Source of the DNA: Candidatus Omnitrophota bacterium
Lineage (GTDB): Bacteria > Omnitrophota > Gorgyraeia > Zapsychrales > Fredricksoniimonadaceae
NCBI GenBank assembly: GCA_043798045.1
Contig: JAZDPD010000034.1
Span: 1-37,872, forward strand
DNA: 37,872 nucleotides
Direction of reading: 5' to 3'
Shown one piece after another: positions 1 to 29,417 of the stretch. The notes under the pieces were generated by a model, which was not told where the DNA came from, ran no database searches, and worked only from the letters and a program-made list of their open reading frames with translations. A program made the translations under genes and the position numbers. The number at the start of each line of letters is the position of its first letter. Position 1 is the stretch's first letter.

Positions 1-1933
1 TGATAGCTCGAACAAGACGATCAAACAGCGGACTAACCCCACGAAATACAATTTCCTGCAATACTTCTGCCTGTGGCAACTCTGTACCAATCACATCAAT
101 GCGTGGATTAAGCGCGCTTAAGAACTCTTTCATGTCAATGGTCGTTTGCGGAGGGCTCCCCACCCCGACATCAATGACTGTATAATCACCGCTCGTAAGA
201 TCAACCCCGGTAATTTTCCTGAATTGAGGATGAACAAGCAATGCCTGGACATCGACATTCCTTCCGGCATGCGTGTATTTTGATGTTACAAAAGATTTAT
301 CGTACTGCGCCTGATCTTTCGTTTCATCCATATTGCTGGTTTGTTCCTGTTGCTTTCTTAATAACACCTGGGCCTCTTCGGAAATTTCAACCGTATCCAC
401 AGGATTAACATACGGATTCACAATCTTTGCTTCTTTCAAAGGTTTCTTGTTTAAATCAGATTTCTTTCCATGAGAATATGGTGGCAAATTCTCACCCAAA
501 GCTTCTGCCGGAGATTTACGCCTGATGGATGAAGCAGCATGATCCACCACCATGGAAGCATCAACCTTAAATACCGACCCGACCGGCTTGATTCCAGCCG
601 CATTGTCCGACCTGGTTAAATCAAAATCATAAAACTTTTCTCCACCAGAGAAATATTGGCGGGGTTCACCTTGGTGCGGTAAAAGGTTGGCGACCTGGGT
701 TGTCTCACCTTGTACAGGGCGGACACGTGGGTCCGCCCCTACGATATCCGCAAGTAGTGGCGGCTCATGATCCGCCACTACACCCTCGGATATATAATTA
801 TAAACGCCATTTTTATAGGCCGCGATATATCTCTGATATATCTCTTCTTTAAGCGTTTTCTCATCTGTGGTCACGCCATGAATCATATTCTTCCCAACGT
901 AAACATCGGTCAACAATGTGTTTTTGATCTTCTCTCGGTACCATTTGGCCAGGATCGCTGCATGGTAGATCTGTCGGATGGGGGCAAAATTCTTTCCCTC
1001 GTTGATTTCGTTTTCGATGGCGGGGACAATAACCTCACGTAAAATATTCTTGGCTAATTCCTGGGATGGCTCAATCTGCCCAATGGCATCTATGCCTAAT
1101 ATATGGCCGGCACGGGGGCCGGCCACTGCATTCAACCCCTCAGATGCACGGGCGGCCCCCTGTGGCCGCCCTTTACTCATGGCAACATAATCAGAATCCA
1201 ACAATACTTTTAATCTTGCTTGTGTCACATACACCGCGTTCTCCTTCTCAAAAACCTCTGACTTATCGGGCATGATCCAGACTTTATTGAACGTATCCAC
1301 CGGAATATCTGTCGTCCCGTATTTATCCATGGCCGCGGCATAGACCTTATCCCAGAACTGTTTGCCCAACCCTTTTTCAGGATAAATGAGTGACGCGATC
1401 AATTGTTTTAGTAAATAATCCTGGGCGAGCATATCCCGCCCTAACACGGTCTCGCCAAGATCCTTTTCAATCACACGGTCTTTTTCATGCGGGGAAAGGT
1501 TGACCCATAGGTCTTTTTCAGGAACGGTGAGCGCGGCGAGAAAATATTTTGCCATCTTTAAAGTTTCTTGTTCAATCGTATTTTGGTGAGGCATGCGGTC
1601 GACGCCCTGGGTCGCTTTCGTATCCGTCGCTAGTTTGGGTGGCAGCGTGCTTGGGGACACGTACCCTTCGGGTACATGTCCCCGGGTTGGCAGCGCAGAA
1701 ATATTTCCTGAGTCCACGATAAAGTCAAAATTTAGCGGCCTGTCAGGATGTATCACCATCCCCTTAACAAGAACGGGTGTAAATGACGCTGACCTGTTAA
1801 CCATCATGCCCGGCTCAGGCAGTTGTGCAACAAACAGGCTTTGGGCATAAGCAAATTCTGGACGGATCAGAAAACTGACTACAATAATCAGCACCATCAT
1901 CTGTCGGCAAAATTGGATCATCATATTATTCAT
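1..1933 (-). CDS. Sec-signal multidomain protein, paralog of the adjacent 1648-aa gene. The 3' end runs off the window (644 codons visible).
   Basis: It is absent from the ORF track because it has no in-window stop. Hand translation of the minus strand from the ATG at 1931-1933 (alternative ATGs at 1922-1924 and 1919-1921) is stop-free down to position 2. The N-terminus MNNMMIQFCRQMMVLIIVVSFLIRPEFAYA|QS looks like a signal peptide. Nt ~638-1810 align with the N-module of the 1965..6911 protein (FLAALTVPEKDLWVNLSP, GTTDIPVD.FNKVWIMPDK, NAVYVTQA.LKV.LDSDY, ENE.NEG.NF, RQYFSGG). The tail (nt 1-637) is unrelated to the neighbour and contains VIDVGVGSPP...DVIGTEL, a weak class-I methyltransferase-like motif. 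Confidence 0.75.
   Translation of the reverse strand, partial: MNNMMIQFCRQMMVLIIVVSFLIRPEFAYAQSLFVAQLPEPGMMVNRSASFTPVLVKGMVIHPDRPLNFDFIVDSGNISALPTRGHVPEGYVSPSTLPPKLATDTKATQGVDRMPHQNTIEQETLKMAKYFLAALTVPEKDLWVNLSPHEKDRVIEKDLGETVLGRDMLAQDYLLKQLIASLIYPEKGLGKQFWDKVYAAAMDKYGTTDIPVDTFNKVWIMPDKSEVFEKENAVYVTQARLKVLLDSDYVAMSKGRPQGAARASEGLNAVAGPRAGHILGIDAIGQIEPSQELAKNILREVIVPAIENEINEGKNFAPIRQIYHAAILAKWYREKIKNTLLTDVYVGKNMIHGVTTDEKTLKEEIYQRYIAAYKNGVYNYISEGVVADHEPPLLADIVGADPRVRPVQGETTQVANLLPHQGEPRQYFSGGEKFYDFDLTRSDNAAGIKPVGSVFKVDASMVVDHAASSIRRKSPAEALGENLPPYSHGKKSDLNKKPLKEAKIVNPYVNPVDTVEISEEAQVLLRKQQEQTSNMDETKDQAQYDKSFVTSKYTHAGRNVDVQALLVHPQFRKITGVDLTSGDYTVIDVGVGSPPQTTIDMKEFLSALNPRIDVIGTELPQAEVLQEIVFRGVSPLFDRLVRAI
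717..738. repeat. GC-rich palindrome GGGCGGAC-ACGTGG-GTCCGCCC, in frame inside a CDS.
   Basis: An 8-bp stem pairs 717-724 with 731-738. It is translated as GADPRVRP, a segment absent from the homologous position of the paralog at 1965..6911. Confidence 0.8.
754..781. repeat. GC-rich palindrome GTAGTGGCGG-CTCATGAT-CCGCCACTAC, in frame inside a CDS.
   Basis: A 10-bp stem pairs 754-763 with 772-781. It is a near copy of the element at 21347-21374, with a compensatory T/A versus G/C change in the stem. It is translated as VVADHEPPLL. Confidence 0.85.
1104..1125. repeat. GC-rich palindrome TGGCCGGC-ACGGGG-GCCGGCCA, in frame inside a CDS.
   Basis: An 8-bp stem pairs 1104-1111 with 1118-1125. It is translated as VAGPRAGH, inside a segment inserted relative to the paralog. 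Confidence 0.75.
1150..1171. repeat. GC-rich palindrome GGGCGGCC-CCCTGT-GGCCGCCC, in frame inside a CDS.
   Basis: An 8-bp stem pairs 1150-1157 with 1164-1171. It is translated as GRPQGAAR, inside a segment inserted relative to the paralog. Confidence 0.75.
1653..1683. repeat. Palindrome GGGGACACGTACCC-TTCG-GGTACATGTCCCC, in frame inside a CDS.
   Basis: 12 bp pair with one mismatch (C1660/A1676). It is translated as RGHVPEGYVSP, in a segment with no counterpart in the paralog. Confidence 0.75.
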
Positions 1934-1964
1934 GAAAACCTTTTCAACCTTAAACAATACGCAT

Positions 1965-4900
1965 TCAATAACTAATGTTCATAAATTCTGCAAGCGACGT
2001 TCTTAAAGGGATGATATCCACGATCATCGACTTTAACCCAAGAAGCCGTGACATTTTCTGAACCATGCCTGAATCGGCCACCACACGATCTTCTACCCTA
2101 TCCAGACCCGCCTTCATGTGCCGGCGGGCTTGTGCCAAATCAATACCACCTGTATTTTCTGCATGATCTGTTCCTTGTTGCAGCAAAAGGCGCTTGGGCA
2201 GAACCTTGACCGTTACCTGCACCCCGTCTCTATTTTCCAGAAATGGCTCTGTCAAATAATGAACATCTCCTGATTCCTGCATTTTCTGGAAATCAACATC
2301 TTTCACCACATCAGGCAAAAAATCCGGCACCATCCACCACATATTAAACCTTAAATTCTTAAACCTTCGGTCATCCTGCCCTACGATCACACCATAAGAA
2401 CCGTTAAAACGAAACCATTTCCTTAATGCCTCCATTTCACGCATGTTCATCCCGAAATTCGACCCAGCCAATCCTCCAATGATCCCGCGTATTTTTTGAA
2501 TATCCTCTTGGGGAATTTCCGGCGAGAGCATTTCCATGGTTTCATTGCCATTTACGTCAAAACGCACCAGCGTCCTGCCCCCGTTCACATACATCAACAA
2601 CCGTTTCAGATCCCCAACCCCATTAAGAGGCGCAGCGATCCTGGTCGTCTGCATAACCCTGGAATTCGCTGATATAATCCCCACCGGGAATTGAGCCAAA
2701 AAACGGACAAATTCTTTCCCCACTAAAGAATCCGGTAAAAGGTCATCTTCCCTTTTATTGATTATTGTCCCATCCACATCAAAAAGGGCTATGCCTTGGC
2801 CGATCAGTTCTTTCAGAGGAATCGTTACACTTTTGCCGGAATCCATTCCCTCTCCCTGGATCGTAACGTCAGTCAGATCATCCGCTATCGCATCAGCAAT
2901 GCGCCGCATTACGCGGGCCGAGGCCTCTTCTCCGGTCCCCACCCAGATCGTCGCTTCCCTGGCCAACTTCGAACGCTCTTCAGGATCGTCATCAACAGAG
3001 AAAACAAGTACCTTTCTTCCTCCATCCTCCAGAGATTTCTTCTTGTGCACCACGCTCATATCATTTCCAAAGGCAAAGAACTCATTACCAAAATACAGTA
3101 CTGTTTTTAATGCCGGATTTCCTGCCATAACCATGCCAACAACATCGCCTTTATTGTAATTCTCTGATGCAATATCTATGGCCCCGAATCCTCCTGGCTC
3201 AAATAAATAGCGCCCATTGAACTCCTTACGCAAAACATCAATAATCTTCCCCCTAAGATCCCGTGAAGATTTCATCCAGGCCGCGGACGCATTGCGATGA
3301 TCCACATACAAGGACCCCGATGCAATTTCATCCCTGACCACACGCGGCAAATATATTTTATGTCGGTCAATATCACGTATATTCGAAGAACTAATAGAAT
3401 TTTCAGACAACCCGATCACGGTCACCGGGAACAATCTCGATCCTCCTGTAATAAAGCCCTGCAAACCATGCGGTGTGGTATCCGTCAAACGCAACCCTGG
3501 GGCAACCCGCTCCAAAGAAAAATCAGTACGTTTAGCAACAACAAAATTAACATCAGAATCCTTCTTATTCCCGTCAGGGAATAAATCCAGCAGCGCATCC
3601 CCGGCTACTTTGGCATGCCGCTCCAGAGCATCACTGCCGCTTAAAAAAAACATTTGGAGCCCCTTCACCCCATCATTCAACCTCATATGCTCCAGTGCCT
3701 GCGCCATCGGTAAAAGATCACCGCGGTCCATGCCAACAGGAGAATACTTTATTAAGGGAAAAAACGGCGCAATGGCGCTCTGAACAAGGTGATGCCGCAA
3801 CTCGACATTGAGTTTGTCATCTTTATACCCGTTGATATCCCCGTTAGGTGACACCACAAGCAGGCTGTTATACGTATTGATAAACTCAAGCCAGAAATTG
3901 ATATGCCCCCAATGCACAGAATCAAATGTCCCGGGCGCAACGCCTATCCTAACCTGACGGGAAGAAGCTTCAGCTGCCGGCAAATCTTCTAAGGGACCTA
4001 AACGAACAGGCATATTCAGATCAAAGGTCCCGTTATCAATTTTCTTTTTAATGGACGATAGATTCTTTTTAATATTCGCAACAACCGCCCTTATATCCTG
4101 ACGGACCGCAGCATCCATTTCCTCTTCTATTTCTTCTTCGGCCGGCAAAGATCTTTCCATCTTCTCAAAATCAATGACCTGCTGCGCGTTATCAGCCACA
4201 ACAGCAACATCCCCTGCCGCATTCTTGAGCGTAGCTGCGACAGGAAATTCAGGTAAATCAAAACCATACGCCTCAAATGCCTCGCCGAAGCTGAGCGCCC
4301 CGCCGATACGAAAAGGAATATACCCTTTAAGCAAGCCTGAGCCACGGGTGATCTTTTGAGCCTCCGCAATATTGAACAACCCGATACCATTTTCTTTCAA
4401 GAATCTCTGCAATTCTTCAGGTGTGTTGGCCACCGCAACAGCATTTGTATTGGACCCACCCCCGCCGACCATAAATAAGCCGATATTATTCTGTTTTGCC
4501 TTTGCCACCACATCCTCTGAATAAAATGAATACAAGCTGATCTTCTTAAGGCCATCTTTATATGTATTATAAAAATCTGAGAGCACCGGGTCCTGTTTCA
4601 AGAACGCAGCATACCTATCGGCATATGAAGGGCGCTCCGGTGAGCCTTCCGGCATCAGGGCCAACTCAAACCAGCGAAAATTAAGTTCATCCCGGATGTC
4701 CATATATCGATTCATGCTATCAATGACACCTTGCATGTCCCTGGCCTTCAACGCTGCGGCAAATTGATGCGCCAGCTGTATACGCTCCCTGTACAATTTC
4801 AAACCAACAGGGTCCATATCCGCCAAAAGGTCACGGCCCATAACACTCGTCACTTCAGCCGTCCTTGGATGCGCGTAACCACCATTGATAAATTCTTTCC

Positions 4901-6911
4901 CAAGCTGGATAAATGCCATCCGCGATTCAAAATACAGATAATCTTCTTCACGGATGATGTCCCGCGAAAATACCTCATCACCGAACAAACGCGCCCCTTC
5001 AGGAGATGTCAGGCTTGAAAGCCAGACATTTTGATAAACACCCCCCAATACATATGGAAAATGCCCCTGCCCTCCGGTAGCCCCGTCAAAAACATTATTT
5101 TCCAAATACGTGGCCCGGTTATAAATATCGGCAAAACTCCAACCAGCACCTTTAAGGATACTGGCGAGCATTAACTCCGCAGCCAGCATCACGCTCGAAC
5201 TCTCCACACCTCCGGCCAAAATGGCCGGATGCGAAACCCGCACCGAAATCTTGATCCCAGAGATCTGAAATAAGTTCTGAAATATATACGCACCTGAACT
5301 GGCCAATCCTTTGGGAATAAACACTTTTCTGTCAGTAAACGGCAATGGCCCATACACCACATAAGGCTGCTCTTCCGGAAAACCATAGTCTTCTGCCACA
5401 TACACCGTTGCCTGAGGATCGTCAGCCGCCTCTAAAGCAACTTCTATAAAAAGATCCTGGTGGGAAAAAGTTAACGTGGAAGGGATCTCTTCAAATGCAA
5501 TAAGGCCTTTTTTAGTGATCAAGTCACGACGATCATTCTTGTCAAGCCCCGATCCTGGGCCATCAAAGGCCCTTATCGGAAGCTTAACCATAAGCCTTTT
5601 CCCATCATTTTTCATGTGCAGCAAGATATTCCGGATCTCTTGCGACGATCTTATCCCTGCATAAATGCCCGTATCATCCCGCACCACAGCTTCACGGGGT
5701 TTAAACAAAACACCCGTTGCTGTTTCCTGGGCCGCATCACTGCGGATGCCAACAGGCTCAAGATCACTGACCACGATCATGGCGCGATCAGGGTCGATCC
5801 CGGATAACAGGCCATCGTCACGGGTACGGCCCATGATCTGGCGCACGCCTTCCCCGGAAAACCCGCCGGAGAAATATTGACGGGGCTCAGAGCCGTCATC
5901 CCGGATAAAATTAAAAACGCCATGCTGAAAAGCCTGCACATACCGTGACCAAATTTTCTCGCCAACATGTTTGTCCTGGATCTCAATGCCGGATATTTTT
6001 TCCTGGTCTACATACGCCACCCCTAATAATGACGAACGAACCTTATCTTTAAACCATACCGCCAGAATAAGGGCATTGTAGATCTGTCGTAACCGCGCAA
6101 AATTTCTGCCTTCGTTAACCTCGTTTTCAAGGACAGGGATGATGATCTCGCGAAGAACAGATTTGCTCAACTCAGACGTAGGGGCGAACCTTGTGTCCGC
6201 CCCTACAACAGCATGAGACATTGCCTCATAATCAGAATCGAGCATCACCTTAAGCTTCGCCTGGGTAACATAGACGGCATTATCTTTTTCAAAAACATCA
6301 GCCTTGTCGGGCATGATCCATACCTTATTAAAAGCATCAACCGGGATATCGGTCGTGCCAAATTTAGCTTGAGCCTGCGCGTATACTTTCGCCCAAAATT
6401 CTTTTCCAATTTTATCGTCGGGATTAATAATGGAAGCCGTTATCTGTTTGAGGATGTAATCCTGTGACAACAAGTCGCGCCCCATTTCCGTTTGACCCAG
6501 CGCATCGGGCACAATACGATCTTTCTCATAAGGAGACAAGTTGACCCAGAGGTCTTTCTCCGGAACGGTCAATGCCGCAAGGAAATACTGGATAAGACGG
6601 TTGACATCATCATTAAGGGCACTGCGGGCGGTTCGCACATTTGACGCATCATCTCCTTGATCCAATACAAAATCCAAGCGGAAAGGATTATCAGGATGGA
6701 TCTTAATACCCTTAAGCAGCACCGGCATGAATGCAGGGCTTAAACCCACAGCCACCCCTGGTTGGGGCAGCTGGAACACTTCCTGGGCCAGAGAACACCG
6801 AGGTCCTCCAACATCCAGCATCAGAAAAGACGCCGTAACAAATGCGGAAACTATTCTGCGACAACGACTTATTGAATGAAAAATCATGCCCAAAACCTCA
6901 GCTGCCATCAA
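1965..6911 (-). CDS. Giant (1648 aa) exported multidomain protein: shared N-module, GHMP-kinase-like domain, HxGH/ISxxxIR nucleotidyltransferase and HAD-IIB-like phosphatase.
   Basis: One uninterrupted ORF. The codon at 6909-6911 is TTG. An ATG lies at 6906-6908, and the ATG at 6885-6887 has GAGG 8 nt upstream, so it is the likeliest start (MIFHSISRCRRIVSAFVTASFLML...SLA|QE, signal-like). Motifs: GHMP motif II-like AGGVESSSVMLAAEL (nt 5187-5216); fucokinase/HddA-like LENNVFDGATGGQGH; motif III-like VGGGGSNT (4446-4469); GTFDSVHWGH (3903-3932) plus ISSSNIR (3375-3395), the cytidylyl/adenylyltransferase superfamily signature; HAD motif IV-like YFGNEFFAFGND (3060-3095); HAD motif I FDVDGT (2766-2783). 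Confidence 0.85.
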   Translation of the reverse strand: MMAAEVLGMIFHSISRCRRIVSAFVTASFLMLDVGGPRCSLAQEVFQLPQPGVAVGLSPAFMPVLLKGIKIHPDNPFRLDFVLDQGDDASNVRTARSALNDDVNRLIQYFLAALTVPEKDLWVNLSPYEKDRIVPDALGQTEMGRDLLSQDYILKQITASIINPDDKIGKEFWAKVYAQAQAKFGTTDIPVDAFNKVWIMPDKADVFEKDNAVYVTQAKLKVMLDSDYEAMSHAVVGADTRFAPTSELSKSVLREIIIPVLENEVNEGRNFARLRQIYNALILAVWFKDKVRSSLLGVAYVDQEKISGIEIQDKHVGEKIWSRYVQAFQHGVFNFIRDDGSEPRQYFSGGFSGEGVRQIMGRTRDDGLLSGIDPDRAMIVVSDLEPVGIRSDAAQETATGVLFKPREAVVRDDTGIYAGIRSSQEIRNILLHMKNDGKRLMVKLPIRAFDGPGSGLDKNDRRDLITKKGLIAFEEIPSTLTFSHQDLFIEVALEAADDPQATVYVAEDYGFPEEQPYVVYGPLPFTDRKVFIPKGLASSGAYIFQNLFQISGIKISVRVSHPAILAGGVESSSVMLAAELMLASILKGAGWSFADIYNRATYLENNVFDGATGGQGHFPYVLGGVYQNVWLSSLTSPEGARLFGDEVFSRDIIREEDYLYFESRMAFIQLGKEFINGGYAHPRTAEVTSVMGRDLLADMDPVGLKLYRERIQLAHQFAAALKARDMQGVIDSMNRYMDIRDELNFRWFELALMPEGSPERPSYADRYAAFLKQDPVLSDFYNTYKDGLKKISLYSFYSEDVVAKAKQNNIGLFMVGGGGSNTNAVAVANTPEELQRFLKENGIGLFNIAEAQKITRGSGLLKGYIPFRIGGALSFGEAFEAYGFDLPEFPVAATLKNAAGDVAVVADNAQQVIDFEKMERSLPAEEEIEEEMDAAVRQDIRAVVANIKKNLSSIKKKIDNGTFDLNMPVRLGPLEDLPAAEASSRQVRIGVAPGTFDSVHWGHINFWLEFINTYNSLLVVSPNGDINGYKDDKLNVELRHHLVQSAIAPFFPLIKYSPVGMDRGDLLPMAQALEHMRLNDGVKGLQMFFLSGSDALERHAKVAGDALLDLFPDGNKKDSDVNFVVAKRTDFSLERVAPGLRLTDTTPHGLQGFITGGSRLFPVTVIGLSENSISSSNIRDIDRHKIYLPRVVRDEIASGSLYVDHRNASAAWMKSSRDLRGKIIDVLRKEFNGRYLFEPGGFGAIDIASENYNKGDVVGMVMAGNPALKTVLYFGNEFFAFGNDMSVVHKKKSLEDGGRKVLVFSVDDDPEERSKLAREATIWVGTGEEASARVMRRIADAIADDLTDVTIQGEGMDSGKSVTIPLKELIGQGIALFDVDGTIINKREDDLLPDSLVGKEFVRFLAQFPVGIISANSRVMQTTRIAAPLNGVGDLKRLLMYVNGGRTLVRFDVNGNETMEMLSPEIPQEDIQKIRGIIGGLAGSNFGMNMREMEALRKWFRFNGSYGVIVGQDDRRFKNLRFNMWWMVPDFLPDVVKDVDFQKMQESGDVHYLTEPFLENRDGVQVTVKVLPKRLLLQQGTDHAENTGGIDLAQARRHMKAGLDRVEDRVVADSGMVQKMSRLLGLKSMIVDIIPLRTSLAEFMNISY
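6178..6206. repeat. GC-rich palindrome GTAGGGGCG(AAC)-CTTGT-(GTC)CGCCCCTAC, in frame inside the giant CDS.
   Basis: A 9-bp perfect stem pairs 6178-6186 with 6198-6206, extendable with one mismatch. It is translated as VVGADTRFAPT. It sits at the same alignment site (after DSDY.AMS) where the paralog carries different palindromes. Confidence 0.8.
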
Positions 6912-7085
6912 CCAGTTTATAATCCATTAAAATCAGCGATTTCAATAGAAATCAACACCGCGCAATCCGGATTTATATATATGTTAATGTTTAACATATA
7001 TTCTTATAAAATGCCAAGTCCAGGGATATTCCGGATAGAAATGATCGGATTATCATTCACAAGGATTTACTCAAATGTGTGGGTA

Positions 7086-8258
<1,173 letters not shown>

Positions 8259-20068: not shown

Positions 20069-21322
20069 TCATCCCTGCCAACCGTTAACGATCTCTTTAT
20101 ACACCTTACCACGATGTTCATAGCTGTTGAACATGTCAAAACTGGCCGTCATCGGGCATAACAAAACACATTCACCCGGCTGCGCCAAGGAATAAGCCTG
20201 CGCCACCGCAGCCGCCATATCCCCCTCAACAACCACGACAGAAACAATATCGCCAAACGTTGCCTTAAACTGTTCCCGAATTGCCCCCATGGACACCATC
20301 ACACGCACTTTCTCACGCACAAGCGCCCGTAGCGGCGCATAATCCAAATGTTTATCCGACCCACCCACCATGATGATGGTCGGCTTTTGCATCCGCTCCA
20401 GCGCCCATCTTCCGGATTCAACCGTTGTGGATTTGGAATCATTAACAAACTCAACCCCTCCCATAACCCGCACCCGTTCCAAGCGATGCTCCACACCAGG
20501 AAATTCATCAAAAACTTTTCTGGCAACCGGATCAGGGACATCGAAAACACGCGCCACTTCCAGCACGGCCAACTGATTGGGATTATCCGCTTCCCCCTCA
20601 CAATTAAAAAATCTTACCTGGGAAGATGTCTCACGAGCCAATCTGACCACCCAGGAATCCCGCGCGTTGAGGATAGCCACATCGGATGGTTGCTGATTCA
20701 TCAGGATACGCTTCTTCGCATTAAAATAATCTTCCATGTCGCAATGACGGTCCAGGTGATTCTGGCTGAAATTCGTAACCACAGCAACAGCCGGACGAAA
20801 GGCATCAATCAACTCCAGCTGGAACGAGCTGATCTCAACAACAAAAACATCAACACCTGGCGTCAGCACCTCCTGTGCAAAAGGAACGCCCACATTGCCG
20901 CACAAACACACATTCCTTCCGGAGGCCGCCAGAACCCTGGCGATCAAAGTCACTGTTGTTGTCTTGCCGTTAGATCCGGTCACAGCCACAACAGGCTTCT
21001 GGCAAAAACGCCATGCGAATTCAATCTCTCCCCATACAGGAATCGCCTTTGCGCGGGCCCATTGAAGAGCCGGTGCATCTTTCCAGACACCAGGACTGGC
21101 GACCACCAGATCTGCCTGCTGGATAAATGCCGACGTATGGGCCCCATATTCAATCTGCACACCGGAACGATCCCTAAGCCCTTGCAGGGCAGGTTCCAGC
21201 GCCTCCAGCGGCTTGGCATCTGAAATACCTACAACAGCCCCCATCTGCATGGCCAGATTCGCCGCGGCTATTCCACTGCGCGCAGCACCGATGATAACTA
21301 TTCTTTTACCTTTTATATCCAT
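20069..21322 (-). CDS. murD: UDP-N-acetylmuramoylalanine--D-glutamate ligase.
   Basis: GKRIVIIGAARSG, VTGSNGKTTT and NDSKSTT. The start is set at the ATG at 20320-21322 region, specifically 21320-21322 (MDIKGKR). The track's extension runs into the palindrome at 21347-21374. Confidence 0.93.
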   Translation of the reverse strand: MDIKGKRIVIIGAARSGIAAANLAMQMGAVVGISDAKPLEALEPALQGLRDRSGVQIEYGAHTSAFIQQADLVVASPGVWKDAPALQWARAKAIPVWGEIEFAWRFCQKPVVAVTGSNGKTTTVTLIARVLAASGRNVCLCGNVGVPFAQEVLTPGVDVFVVEISSFQLELIDAFRPAVAVVTNFSQNHLDRHCDMEDYFNAKKRILMNQQPSDVAILNARDSWVVRLARETSSQVRFFNCEGEADNPNQLAVLEVARVFDVPDPVARKVFDEFPGVEHRLERVRVMGGVEFVNDSKSTTVESGRWALERMQKPTIIMVGGSDKHLDYAPLRALVREKVRVMVSMGAIREQFKATFGDIVSVVVVEGDMAAAVAQAYSLAQPGECVLLCPMTASFDMFNSYEHRGKVYKEIVNGWQG

Positions 21323-22469
21323 ACTCTCTCCATTCAAACGCTGCAAGTAGGGGCGGCTCATGAGCCGCCCCTACACACAAACGAATCTTCAATGTCGTCA
21401 ACGTAATCAACGCCAGAATAATCCCGATAATCCAGAAACGAATAACAATCTTGGATTCCTTCCAATTGATCTTCTGCAAATGATGATGATACGGCGCACA
21501 TTTAAATATTCTTCTGCCTGTTAGCTTGAATGAAGCCACCTGCAAAATTACTGATAATGCCTCCCAGACAAAAACACCCCCAAGGATACCCATTAAAAGT
21601 TCTTTCTTGATAAAAATGGCAATGATCCCCAATGTGCCGCCCAGGGCCAGCGAACCCACATCACCCATGAAAACCGTTGCCGGGTATGCATTAAACCACA
21701 AAAACCCGAGGCTGGCACCGATCATGGCCGCACAAAAAACTGTCAACTCACCTGTCCCTGGGATATAAGGAATAAAAAGATATTCACTGATGCGGATATT
21801 GCCGCTGATATAACAAAGAATCCCAAGAGTAATCGCCACCATGAGCGTACAACCAATGGCAAGGCCGTCAAGGCCATCCGTCAGATTCACGGCATTGGAT
21901 GTCCCGACAACCACAACCATGGCAAACAAGATATAGAAAGCGCCCAAATCAATGGCCAAATGCTTAAAGAACGGAACATCAAGCGTTGTACTCACATGAA
22001 GCTGGGTATAAAGAAAAAAGCTGACAAGCCCGGCAAGGATAACCTGCCATATCATCTTGGTTGATGCATTAAGCCCGCTCCTGGACTTACCGGACAATTT
22101 CAGATAATCATCATAGAAACCAAGCACCGAAAGCCATATCATCGTTAATATCGTCAGCAAAATATAAGGATTCCTCAGATCAGACCACAAAAGAACCGAC
22201 AACAGGATACTGCCAATGATCAGGATACCGCCCATTGCGGGAATATTCTGCTTGGTCTTGAGTTCTTCATTAAGCACCGTACCGCGCGCCGAATGCATAT
22301 CCTGCTTGTCCCCTAGATTCCACTCCTGCAATTTTCGAATGAACCACGGCCCGATTATTATGCACACCAAAAACGTCGTCACCGCCGCCATCCCGGCCCG
22401 GAAAGTAATGTACTTGAAAATATTCAGCGCAAAAAACTCGTACCGCAGCAACGAAAGATAATAAAACAT
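21306..22469 (-). CDS. mraY: Phospho-N-acetylmuramoyl-pentapeptide transferase, with a 23-aa palindrome-derived C-terminal extension.
   Basis: NAVNLTDGLDGLA, PATVFMGDVGSLALGG and APYHHH. The canonical end ...TTLKIR is followed by LCVGAAHEPPLLAAFEWREYGYKR, read through the palindrome. Confidence 0.93.
   Translation of the reverse strand: MFYYLSLLRYEFFALNIFKYITFRAGMAAVTTFLVCIIIGPWFIRKLQEWNLGDKQDMHSARGTVLNEELKTKQNIPAMGGILIIGSILLSVLLWSDLRNPYILLTILTMIWLSVLGFYDDYLKLSGKSRSGLNASTKMIWQVILAGLVSFFLYTQLHVSTTLDVPFFKHLAIDLGAFYILFAMVVVVGTSNAVNLTDGLDGLAIGCTLMVAITLGILCYISGNIRISEYLFIPYIPGTGELTVFCAAMIGASLGFLWFNAYPATVFMGDVGSLALGGTLGIIAIFIKKELLMGILGGVFVWEALSVILQVASFKLTGRRIFKCAPYHHHLQKINWKESKIVIRFWIIGIILALITLTTLKIRLCVGAAHEPPLLAAFEWREYGYKR
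21347..21374. repeat. Perfect 28-nt palindrome GTAGGGGCGGCTCA|TGAGCCGCCCCTAC at the mraY/murD junction.
   Basis: The sequence is its own reverse complement (14-nt arms). It belongs to the same family as 754-781 and 6178-6206. Confidence 0.9.
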
Positions 22470-29390: not shown

Positions 29391-29417
29391 TAAAAAAGCC
29401 CCCTAAGAAGGGGGCTT
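29391..29417 (-). terminator. Rho-independent terminator downstream of ribF.
   Basis: Minus strand: AAGCCCCCT-TCTT-AGGGGGCTT followed by a T run (GGGGGCTTTTTTA). The stem pairs 29396-29404 with 29409-29417. Confidence 0.8.

What the first reader, a model, noticed from the sequence alone, without database searches (positions are those of the whole stretch)
717..1683. GC-rich palindromes inserted in frame inside the paralogous giant genes
Aligning the two N-modules shows that the left paralog carries extra peptide segments, and each one coincides with a perfect or near-perfect GC-rich palindrome. RGHVPEGYVSP matches 1653-1683. GRPQGAAR matches 1150-1171 and VAGPRAGH matches 1104-1125. VVADHEPPLL matches 754-781 and GADPRVRP matches 717-738. 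After the DSDY-AMS block, where the paralog has two of these, the 1648-aa gene has its own palindrome at 6178-6206 (VVGADTRFAPT). These elements look like REP-type hairpin repeats that normally live between genes. Here they sit in loops of an ORF without breaking the frame. For GTAGGGGCGGCTCATGAGCCGCCCCTAC only one of the three frames is stop-free, and that is the frame used. This is either mobile-hairpin colonisation of tolerant protein loops or selected mRNA structures inside these genes.
Basis: seen in the sequence. Interest (0 to 1): 0.6.

Follow-up and report, generated by a model that had tools for sequence, protein, structure and literature searches.

The report
Mobile hairpin repeats translated inside genes
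Small GC-rich hairpin repeats of the selfish REP type sit in frame in floppy loops of a many-copy protein domain of an uncultured Omnitrophota bacterium; this kind of event is already known, but here it is unusually concentrated in one domain family.

Summary
All the named palindromes exist, fold as hairpins, and code exactly the peptide segments by which the left paralog is longer.

- **What they are.** They are GTAG-headed REP/REPIN elements. There are about 148 in this 2.3-Mb Omnitrophota MAG, against 6-18 perfect hairpins in simulated genomes. A REP-type tyrosine transposase (RAYT) is present and itself carries an in-frame REP dimer.
- **A second element.** The 1653-1683 hairpin belongs to a different repeat of about 117 nt, found only inside this domain family.
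- **Where they sit.** 70 of 148 REPs lie in the ~330-residue N-terminal "head" shared by about 48 paralogous exported-cargo genes. Heads make up 2.1% of the genome. The 128 kb of cargo in the same genes holds no GTAG REP. Three relatives show the same bias, more weakly.
- **Evidence of insertion.** Close paralogs differ at the same loop: empty, REP, or long element. Only stop-free frames are used.

Best reading: mobile hairpins colonise disordered loops and then spread among heads by paralog recombination. Intragenic REPs are published (PMC3733652), and this scan has noted the same in other Omnitrophota genomes. This is a new member of a known kind.

The parts
2..1957 (-). Left paralog (P0001, runs off the window). 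It has a signal peptide and the ~330-residue 'head' domain at 641-1846, lengthened to 402 residues by repeat-coded inserts.
1965..6911 (-). 1648-aa paralog (P0002). Head at 5856-6791, then unique cargo with a weak cytidylyltransferase-like match.
713..742 (-). GTAG-headed REP (GTAG + GGGCGGAC..GTCCGCCC), read as VGADPRVRP in the last head loop.
754..781 (.). 'Double-foot' REP (GTAG...CTAC, one stem mismatch), read as VVADHEPPLL.
651..700 (-). Tail fragment of the long hairpin element, running into the conserved head end (PRQYFSGG). It is 92% identical over 50 nt to the copy at G000 C161:26041-26200.
1100..1129 (-). REP of the TGGCCGGC..GCCGGCCA subfamily, read as VAGPRAGH in the loop after DSDY.AMS.
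1146..1176 (-). REP of the GGGCGGCC..GGCCGCCC subfamily, read as KGRPQGAAR in the same loop.
1595..1692 (-). Truncated copy of the ~117-nt head-specific hairpin element. It has a short hairpin at 1653-1683 (RGHVPEGYVSP) and the tail STLPPKLATDTKATQGVDRM.
6178..6206 (.). Double-foot REP (one stem mismatch) in the DSDY.AMS loop of the 1648-aa gene, read as VVGADTRFAPT.
21347..21374 (.). Perfect 28-nt double-foot REP at the mraY/murD junction. It is read as VGAAHEPPLL in a ~22-codon extension of the mraY ORF and overlaps the murD ORF start.

Best explanation
The palindromes are copies of a genome-wide family of GTAG-headed REP/REPIN elements. These are small non-autonomous hairpin DNAs mobilised by a REP-associated tyrosine (HUH) transposase. 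A second, ~117-nt hairpin element accompanies them. Both have inserted into disordered surface loops of the conserved N-terminal 'head' domain shared by about 48 exported cargo genes of this Omnitrophota bacterium.

Insertions that keep the frame and bring no stop codon survive and are translated as short Gly/Ala/Pro/Arg-rich loop peptides. The others are lost. Once inside one head, an element is passed to the same loop of other heads by recombination or gene conversion between paralogs and by gene duplication. This concentrates the elements in heads.

- Shown: family membership, the distribution, filled and empty sites, and frame use.
- Inferred: transposition by the RAYT, spread by gene conversion, translation, and neutrality.
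For: **REP family.**
- 131 GC-rich perfect hairpins occur genome-wide. Most have the form (GTAG)GGGCNNNN-loop-NNNNGCCC(CTAC), with the tag on one side or both, and there are several inverted dimers.
- The working set holds 148 elements; 123 are perfect, against 6-18 in simulations.
- The stems differ between subfamilies but stay complementary.

**Transposase.**
- In relative G008, two RAYT genes are flanked by these REPs and a REPIN.
- The G000 homolog (C189, 195 aa) has NHIH, WQ and YIVTNP motifs and an in-frame REP dimer between them. Its best NCBIfam match is REP_Tyr_transpos.

**Both compartments.**
- 70 of 148 elements lie in heads and 59 of 148 in contexts with little or no ORF. In-frame copies also sit inside panB and tatD, with the Pfam match running across them.
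- Every larger subfamily occurs both in heads and outside them.

**Insertion after paralog divergence.**
- Among four heads 67-79% identical in DNA, the first loop is empty, holds two REPs, or holds the long element. One head has a clean 27-nt REP insertion.
- Heads C27 and C28 are 93% identical yet carry different REPs at the same loop.
- The long element sits at five or more different loops at 84-94% identity.

**Frames.**
- In heads, five of the six orientation/phase classes are used. The sixth would read TAG.
- Subfamilies with an extra TGA use only their open frame. The long element has 1 of 6 frames open, and 18 of 18 copies use it.

**Loops.** In the AlphaFold model the element-coded stretches (56-84, 227-258, 347-402) have pLDDT below 50 and lie between secondary-structure elements.

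**Spread between heads.** Pairs of heads that share an element at a loop are 6.6 points more alike in the 60-nt flanks than overall. Other pairs are 0.9 points less alike.
Against: - Tolerance alone does not explain the density. Heads are 2.1% of the genome (2.7% with flanks) and hold 47% of the elements (binomial P about 1e-67). The 127.9 kb of cargo in 45 of the same genes holds no GTAG REP.
- The long element was never found outside heads. A freely transposing element should also leave intergenic copies.
- Stems in heads are as intact as elsewhere: 47 of 57 GTAGGGGC sites in heads are perfect, against 32 of 61 elsewhere. Selection on the hairpin could therefore also be at work.
- The flank-identity signal comes from non-independent pairs and carries no valid P value.
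- No transposition event, no empty or filled allele of the same gene, and no protein evidence was seen.
- The G000 RAYT scores 56 bits, below NCBI's cut-off of 80.
- The genome is 76.6% complete in 276 contigs, so intergenic repeats may be under-assembled and the head share inflated. The 10-contig relative G010 still gives 21-35 of 62.
Confidence: 0.7

Rival explanations
1. Selected function. The hairpins are kept in the 5' part of these genes because they do something there: as mRNA or DNA structures (translation pausing after the signal peptide, mRNA stability, topology of long transcription units), or as a source of variable surface loops on the exported head.
For: - The concentration in heads is extreme and repeated: 70/148 in G000, 21-35/62 in G010, 11/64 in G008 and 3-8/73 in G014, in 0.7-2.2% of each genome.
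- Stems remain perfect inside paralogs that are only about 50-60% identical as proteins.
- Double-foot REPs also sit about 38 nt upstream of the start codon of three heads (C216, C82, C158). A fourth (C237) has two REPs further upstream.
- The cargo parts of the same genes have none.
Against: - Positions, numbers, types and orientations differ between close paralogs, and some loops are empty.
- Many heads have no REP at all.
- The same elements lie between genes and in panB, tatD and the RAYT gene.
- Decayed copies are common, such as VGGIHESP and VGTLRATSLQ.
- Frame use is what a stop-codon filter alone predicts.
Confidence: 0.15
2. Inheritance and paralog recombination only. A few old insertions were multiplied by duplication and gene conversion of the head. 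There is no ongoing transposition, and the resemblance to intergenic REPs is historical.
For: - The same REP dimer sits at the same loop in a clade of five heads.
- Flanks of shared elements are more alike than the rest of the head.
- The long element occurs only in heads.
Against: - The same elements occur at non-homologous loops. The dimer is at two loops, VGARHGVPEM at two loops, and the long element at five or more.
- Identical units occur between genes and in unrelated genes.
- C76 has a clean 27-nt insertion that its sister heads lack.
- An intact-looking RAYT is present.
Confidence: 0.12
3. Ancestral loops or assembly artefact. The segments are old parts of the protein that happen to be palindromic, or repeats were mis-joined during assembly.
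For: The MAG is fragmented (276 contigs), and several contigs end inside heads or at REPs.
Against: - Heads from 28 loci of relatives have gaps at all three insert regions of the left paralog.
- The reading frames stay open across every element.
- Perfect 8-14-bp stems are far above chance.
- The same pattern appears in a 10-contig relative.
Confidence: 0.03

Closest known systems
GTAG-tagged REP/REPIN elements, including intragenic ones (Di Nocera et al. 2013, PMC3733652; passages read)
   Same: - 20-28-nt GC-rich hairpins with a GTAG foot.
- Many subfamilies, and frequent inverted dimers.
- Copies near gene ends.
- Some copies read in frame inside genes, where dimers code about 20 residues.
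   Different: In the paper's species most REPs are intergenic, and the intragenic ones sit in unrelated genes, many of them DNA-repair genes. Here about half sit in one paralogous domain, and none sits in the rest of those genes.
TnpA-REP / RAYT subclass 2.4 with 'double foot' REPs (Quentin et al. 2018, PMC6006769; passages read)
   Same: - About 194 aa, with HuH motif NH[IFV]H and a WQ motif.
- The G008 copy has a YIxNNP-type Tyr motif.
- REPs tagged at both ends (GTAG...CTAC).
- REPs inserted inside the transposase gene itself. All of this was seen here.
   Different: - The G000 protein has YIVTNP.
- It scores below NCBIfam's cut-off.
- Subclass membership was judged from motifs, not from a tree.
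Rickettsia palindromic elements, RPE (Ogata et al. 2000; seen only as cited in PMC3184786 and PMC3733652)
   Same: The ~117-nt element is a long hairpin repeat always read in the same frame and orientation. It adds about 40 residues inside otherwise conserved proteins.
   Different: RPEs are described in many unrelated genes. This element was found only in the head domain of one family. Sequence relatedness to RPEs was not tested.
Omnitrophota long and giant multi-enzyme proteins (bioRxiv 10.1101/2023.11.21.568195 and 10.64898/2026.06.07.730766; term searches only)
   Same: Same phylum and gene class: a signal peptide, an unannotated N-terminal region, and varied enzyme cargo.
   Different: Neither text contains 'palindrom' or 'hairpin' (0 occurrences each). 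REPs inside these genes are not described there.

Membership tests
GTAG-tagged REP/REPIN superfamily | Short (20-40 bp) GC-rich imperfect palindrome able to form a stem-loop | tested here: met
   Stems of 8-14 bp. DNA folds of -9.9 to -15.9 kcal/mol, z -2.7 to -7.0.
GTAG-tagged REP/REPIN superfamily | Conserved GT[AG]G tetranucleotide at the foot of the hairpin | tested here: met
   GTAG, GTAC or GTAA on one or both sides in 120 of 148 elements. GTAG (40) and CTAC (64) are the commonest flanks.
GTAG-tagged REP/REPIN superfamily | High copy number, dispersed, well above chance | tested here: met
   123 perfect hairpins against 6-18 in three simulated genomes. Pattern hits 96 against control 2.
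GTAG-tagged REP/REPIN superfamily | Frequent inverted dimers (REPINs) | tested here: met
   Dimers at C100, C17, C189, C253, C52, C79, C97, C216, C237 and others.
GTAG-tagged REP/REPIN superfamily | Cognate RAYT gene flanked by the same REPs | tested here: met
   - Met in relative G008: REP and REPIN on both sides of two RAYT genes.
- In G000 the homolog carries the REP dimer inside the gene. No GTAG REP lies in the 350 bases 5' of the gene, where the contig ends, nor in the gene-overlapped 3' flank.
GTAG-tagged REP/REPIN superfamily | Predominantly extragenic location | tested here: not met
   83 of 148 lie deep inside long ORFs, 64 of them in heads; 65 of 148 are at ORF ends or outside. This concerns location, not the element's build.
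TnpA-REP (RAYT) subclass 2.4 | HuH motif NH[IFV]H, a WQ motif, and a Tyr motif YIxNNP, in about 194 aa | tested here: inconclusive
   - G000: 195 aa with NHIH, WQ and YIVTNP.
- G008: 197 aa with NHIH, WQ and YILNNP.
- No phylogeny was made.
TnpA-REP (RAYT) subclass 2.4 | REP inserted within the tnpA-REP gene | tested here: met
   In-frame dimer VVGAPLVGALNKRAGTRPAPT between the HuH and Tyr motifs.
NCBIfam NF047646 REP_Tyr_transpos (equivalog) | Score at or above the curated cut-off of 80 bits | tested here: not met
   56.4 bits (G000 C189), 79.3 and 71.8 bits (G008), 75.5 bits (G000 C257). It is the best family in every case.
RPE-like in-frame palindromic element (for the 117-nt element) | ~100-150-nt palindromic repeat, read in one frame, inserted in many unrelated genes | tested here: not met
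   Length, hairpin and single frame are met: 1 of 6 frames is open, and 18 of 18 copies share strand and frame. All copies lie in one domain family.

The most novel reading that the evidence does not exclude
The head domain is not just a tolerant landing pad but the preferred home of these elements. In this reading, the RAYT or paralog gene conversion swaps hairpin cassettes in and out of fixed loops of about 50 heads per genome. The result is a built-in generator of loop diversity, and perhaps of head-cargo recombination, on an exported or handling domain. REP-type elements would then be nearly the only source of length variation in this domain across a whole Omnitrophota family.
Probability: 0.15. 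Interest if true: 0.75.

Novelty: new member of a known kind. Interest (0 to 1): 0.42.

Why it matters
The finding shows that the 'extragenic' label of REPs fails in this lineage. Up to half of a genome's REPs can live inside coding sequence, as translated loop peptides in one hugely expanded domain.

Three practical consequences follow:
- **Annotation.** Peptides such as VGAIHESPL or VGARHGVPEM in Omnitrophota proteins are repeat-derived.
- **Alignment and tree building.** The larger indels among these heads are largely made of these repeats.
- **REP biology.** The family gives a natural test bed, with dozens of paralogous filled and empty sites per genome, for how REPs choose or keep their sites.

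Tried and rejected
- **Ortholog comparison.** The cargo part of the 1648-aa gene (1261 aa) found no counterpart in 8 genus relatives; only three weak tail matches appeared. Presence or absence in true orthologs could not be scored, so paralogs were used instead.
- **Public sequencing runs.** One DNA holder was found, kept as Logan contigs with a 0.14 share of words; no RNA holder is listed. Laying it gave short low-depth pieces of relatives and no usable filled or empty site.
- **Head identity.** Pfam and NCBIfam give no family for the head. Foldseek against the PDB gave no match at E <= 0.001 for the head model.
- **Rfam.** Only two sub-threshold chance hits on 1-7200.
- **One-mismatch hairpin definition.** Without a tag it was too noisy (308 real against 173-189 simulated) and was dropped in favour of perfect or tagged elements.
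- **The C257 Y1 transposase.** It was first taken as the cognate RAYT. It is flanked by a different inverted repeat, so it was set aside.
- **Homology break between C27 and C28.** I considered that it marks REP-mediated head-cargo recombination. The break coincides with the natural end of the head, so it cannot be told apart.
Full report
**Observation.** The window is a whole 37,872-base contig (C274) of a 2.30-Mb, 276-contig, 76.6%-complete genome with 47.4% G+C.
- Two ORFs on the minus strand, 2..1957 (runs off the window) and 1965..6911 (1648 aa), share an N-terminal module: 181 of 430 positions identical, 97 of 430 gap positions.
As single-stranded DNA they fold into hairpins of -9.9 to -15.9 kcal/mol, z -2.7 to -7.0.
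- The peptides quoted are the ones encoded.
- In a 30-sequence alignment with heads from relatives, the three insert regions of the left paralog face gaps in nearly all other rows.
- The perfect 28-mer used for the frame argument lies at 21347-21374, in a C-terminal extension of the mraY ORF.

**What the elements are.**
- A genome-wide scan found 579 perfect hairpins (stem >= 8, loop <= 8), 131 of them with GC-rich stems. Most share the build (GTAG)GGGCNNNN-loop-NNNNGCCC(CTAC), with the GTAG tag on one side or both ('double foot'). Several form inverted dimers.
- I defined a working set as perfect 8-bp outer stems of the form NGGC..GCCN, or one mismatch plus a GTAG, GTAC or GTAA tag. It has 148 members. 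The real genome has 123 perfect ones, against 6, 18 and 10 in three third-order Markov simulations.
- Subfamilies differ in the inner stem but stay complementary; examples are GGGCACGCCATGGCGTGCCC (19 copies) and GGGCGATTCATGAATCGCCC (12 copies).
- This is the anatomy of GTAG-tagged REPs and REPINs (PMC3733652, passages).

**The transposase.**
- In the genus relative G008, two Y1/HUH transposase genes are flanked by these REPs and a REPIN.
- G000 has a homolog at C189:10194-10781, matched in two pieces at E 2.5e-26 and 4.2e-17. It is 195 aa with NHIH, WQ and YIVTNP motifs, and an in-frame REP dimer (VVGAPLVGALNKRAGTRPAPT) lies between them.
- Its best NCBIfam family is REP_Tyr_transpos, at 56 bits, below the 80-bit cut-off.
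- These traits, including REPs inside the transposase gene, are those described for TnpA-REP subclass 2.4 (PMC6006769, passages).

**Organism and host genes.**
- Source names in the protein search say Candidatus Omnitrophota/Omnitrophica. 3442 proteins match the module at E <= 0.001, and they are fused to many different enzyme domains.
- G000 has 53 tblastn segments of the module, about 48 heads, covering 48,336 bases or 2.1% of the genome.
- Genomes of the same family hold 10-76 matches each.
- The head has no Pfam or NCBIfam family and no Foldseek match in the PDB.

**Distribution.**
- Of the 148 elements, 70 lie in heads (64 deep inside the ORF) and 3 lie close by. A further 19 are deep in other ORFs, and 56 are at ORF ends or outside ORFs.
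- Counting heads plus 150 nt on each side (2.7% of the genome), the binomial probability of 70 or more is about 1e-67.
- The exact 8-mer GTAGGGGC occurs 57 times in heads and 61 times elsewhere.
- The cargo parts of 45 of these genes (127,917 bases) hold one set member, and it is not a GTAG REP.
- I counted relatives by hand from the paired tables; double-foot copies count on both strands.
  - G010 (10 contigs): 21 pattern hits strictly inside heads plus 14 at their edges, of 62.
  - G008: 11 of 64.
  - G014: 3 inside plus 5 at the 5' edge, of 73.
  - Heads are about 0.7-2.2% of those genomes by my sum of match lengths.
- Outside heads, in-frame REPs lie inside panB and tatD, where the Pfam match runs across each in one stretch. 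They also lie in a UPF0489 protein and in two GNVGIGT-repeat proteins. REPs extend the 3' ends of hydF and mraY.

**Evidence for insertion.**
- In an alignment of 42 full heads, the element-coded residues fall in a few loops, after core columns 47, 161, 193/200, 253/256 and 304. The larger inserts there are mostly intact or recognisably decayed elements.
- A tree built from the 260 other columns shows the same REP dimer at the first loop in two distant clades. Within the larger of these, the two nested heads carry other REPs and the long element at that loop.
- Four heads 67-79% identical in DNA show the first loop empty, holding two REPs, or holding the long element. One of them (C76) has a clean 27-nt insertion that its sisters lack.
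- Heads C27 and C28 are 93% identical over 391 nt, yet one carries a REP dimer and the other a double-foot REP at the same loop.

**Frames.**
- Among the 70 head elements, five of the six orientation/phase classes are used. The missing class would read the TAG of GTAG.
- Subfamilies with TGA in a further frame use only the frame left open.
- Three of the 70 lie upstream of the start codon and contain stops in the gene's frame.

**The second element.**
- The 1653-1683 hairpin is part of a ~117-nt repeat with an 18-bp stem and a conserved tail; the peptide is LPTRGHSAPLQ..RGSVSPSTLP..DTKATQG.NRM.
- 18 copies at 83-95% identity to the query copy lie in G000. All are in heads, all on the coding strand in one frame, and they occupy at least five different loops.
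- Only one of its six frames is open.
- The window has a truncated copy at 1595-1692 and a tail fragment at 651-700.
- Related copies at 71-86% identity occur in 7 of 30 relatives, all of the same family.

**Structure.** An AlphaFold model of the left head (30-row alignment, mean pLDDT 65.3) has pLDDT below 50 at 56-84, 227-258, 347-371 and 375-402. These are the element-coded stretches, and they lie between helices and strands. They are therefore predicted to be disordered loops.

**Mechanism.**
- The evidence supports mobile REP/REPIN elements that survive in coding sequence only where the loop tolerates them and the frame stays open.
- Tolerance alone does not explain a density in heads far above that of intergenic DNA, nor the lack of copies in cargo.
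- Heads are the only sequence present in about 50 similar copies. Pairs of heads that share an element at a loop are 6.6 points more alike in the 60-nt flanks than overall (7.5 points for pairs below 70% overall identity). Other pairs are 0.9 points less alike.
- I therefore infer that recombination or gene conversion between heads spreads and swaps the elements. The pairs are not independent, so this is a hint and not a test.
- A selected role of the hairpins remains possible, but nothing seen here requires it.

**Comparison and novelty.**
- Intragenic GTAG REPs, often dimers coding 20-30 residues, are published (PMC3733652). So are in-frame palindromic elements in Rickettsia, seen here only as cited in PMC3184786 and PMC3733652.
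- The two Omnitrophota giant-gene preprints do not contain 'palindrom' or 'hairpin'.
- Earlier notes of this scan report the same kind of in-frame REPs in heads and junctions of giant genes in other Omnitrophota genomes. The phenomenon has therefore been found before on other DNA.

**Limits.**
- No gene caller was available. 'Deep in an ORF' means at least 50 codons on both sides in an open frame; 2013 of 3000 random sites pass this test.
- Heads were found with one query.
- The MAG is incomplete.
- No expression, protein or population data could be obtained.

Noticed in passing
G000 contig C189:10194-10781 (locus L048 1477-2064, minus strand): The REP-type tyrosine transposase of this genome carries an in-frame REP dimer (21 residues) between its HuH and Tyr motifs. 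A tRNA-like sequence lies just upstream.
   Followed up: partly
G000 contig C257 (locus L001 1118-1786, plus strand): A second RAYT-like gene (222 aa, 75.5 bits to REP_Tyr_transpos). It is flanked not by GTAG REPs but by inverted copies of GAAACTGGGACACACAAAGTTTT, at about 1000-1022, 1800-1822 and 1873-1896.
   Followed up: no
window 21306-21400: The perfect 28-nt double-foot REP sits at the mraY/murD junction. The mraY ORF reads through it for about 22 extra codons after the usual ...LKIR end, and the murD ORF start (21361) lies inside the palindrome.
   Followed up: partly
G000 C216:1901-1920, C82:5610-5629, C158:240-259, C237:14477-14541: In C216, C82 and C158 a double-foot REP lies about 38 nt upstream of the ATG of a head gene, next to a conserved AT-rich promoter-like stretch (TATATAGTTTATATTTA). 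In C237 two REPs lie further upstream, about 56 and 100 nt from the ATG.
   Followed up: no
G000 C266:3059-3859 and C266:6079-6954: Housekeeping genes panB and tatD each carry one in-frame REP (KMAGTGAGQYM and VGAIHESPLR) inside the Pfam domain.
   Followed up: partly
G000 C205:6167-10189 and C68:2649-4307: Two large proteins with GNVGIGT-type repeats and no Pfam family carry the same in-frame REP (VGAGSPSP..) at equivalent positions. A similar protein is the RAYT's neighbour on C189.
   Followed up: no
G000 C82:11538-12479: One head copy has an in-frame stop and a very long branch in the tree (length 1.0). It may be a decaying paralog.
   Followed up: no
window 6977-7001 and 29396-29417: An AT-rich perfect palindrome (ATATATGTTAA..TTAACATATAT) lies just upstream of the 1648-aa gene. 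A terminator-like hairpin AAGCCCCC..GGGGGCTT also occurs. Neither belongs to the REP family.
   Followed up: no
relatives G001-G030: The head domain is present in 27 of 31 genomes searched (G000 included), with 10-76 matches per genome in the window's family and 0-10 in other families of the order. GTAG-GGGC REP counts are patchy: 96, 64, 62 and 73 in four genomes, and near the control level in most others.
   Followed up: partly
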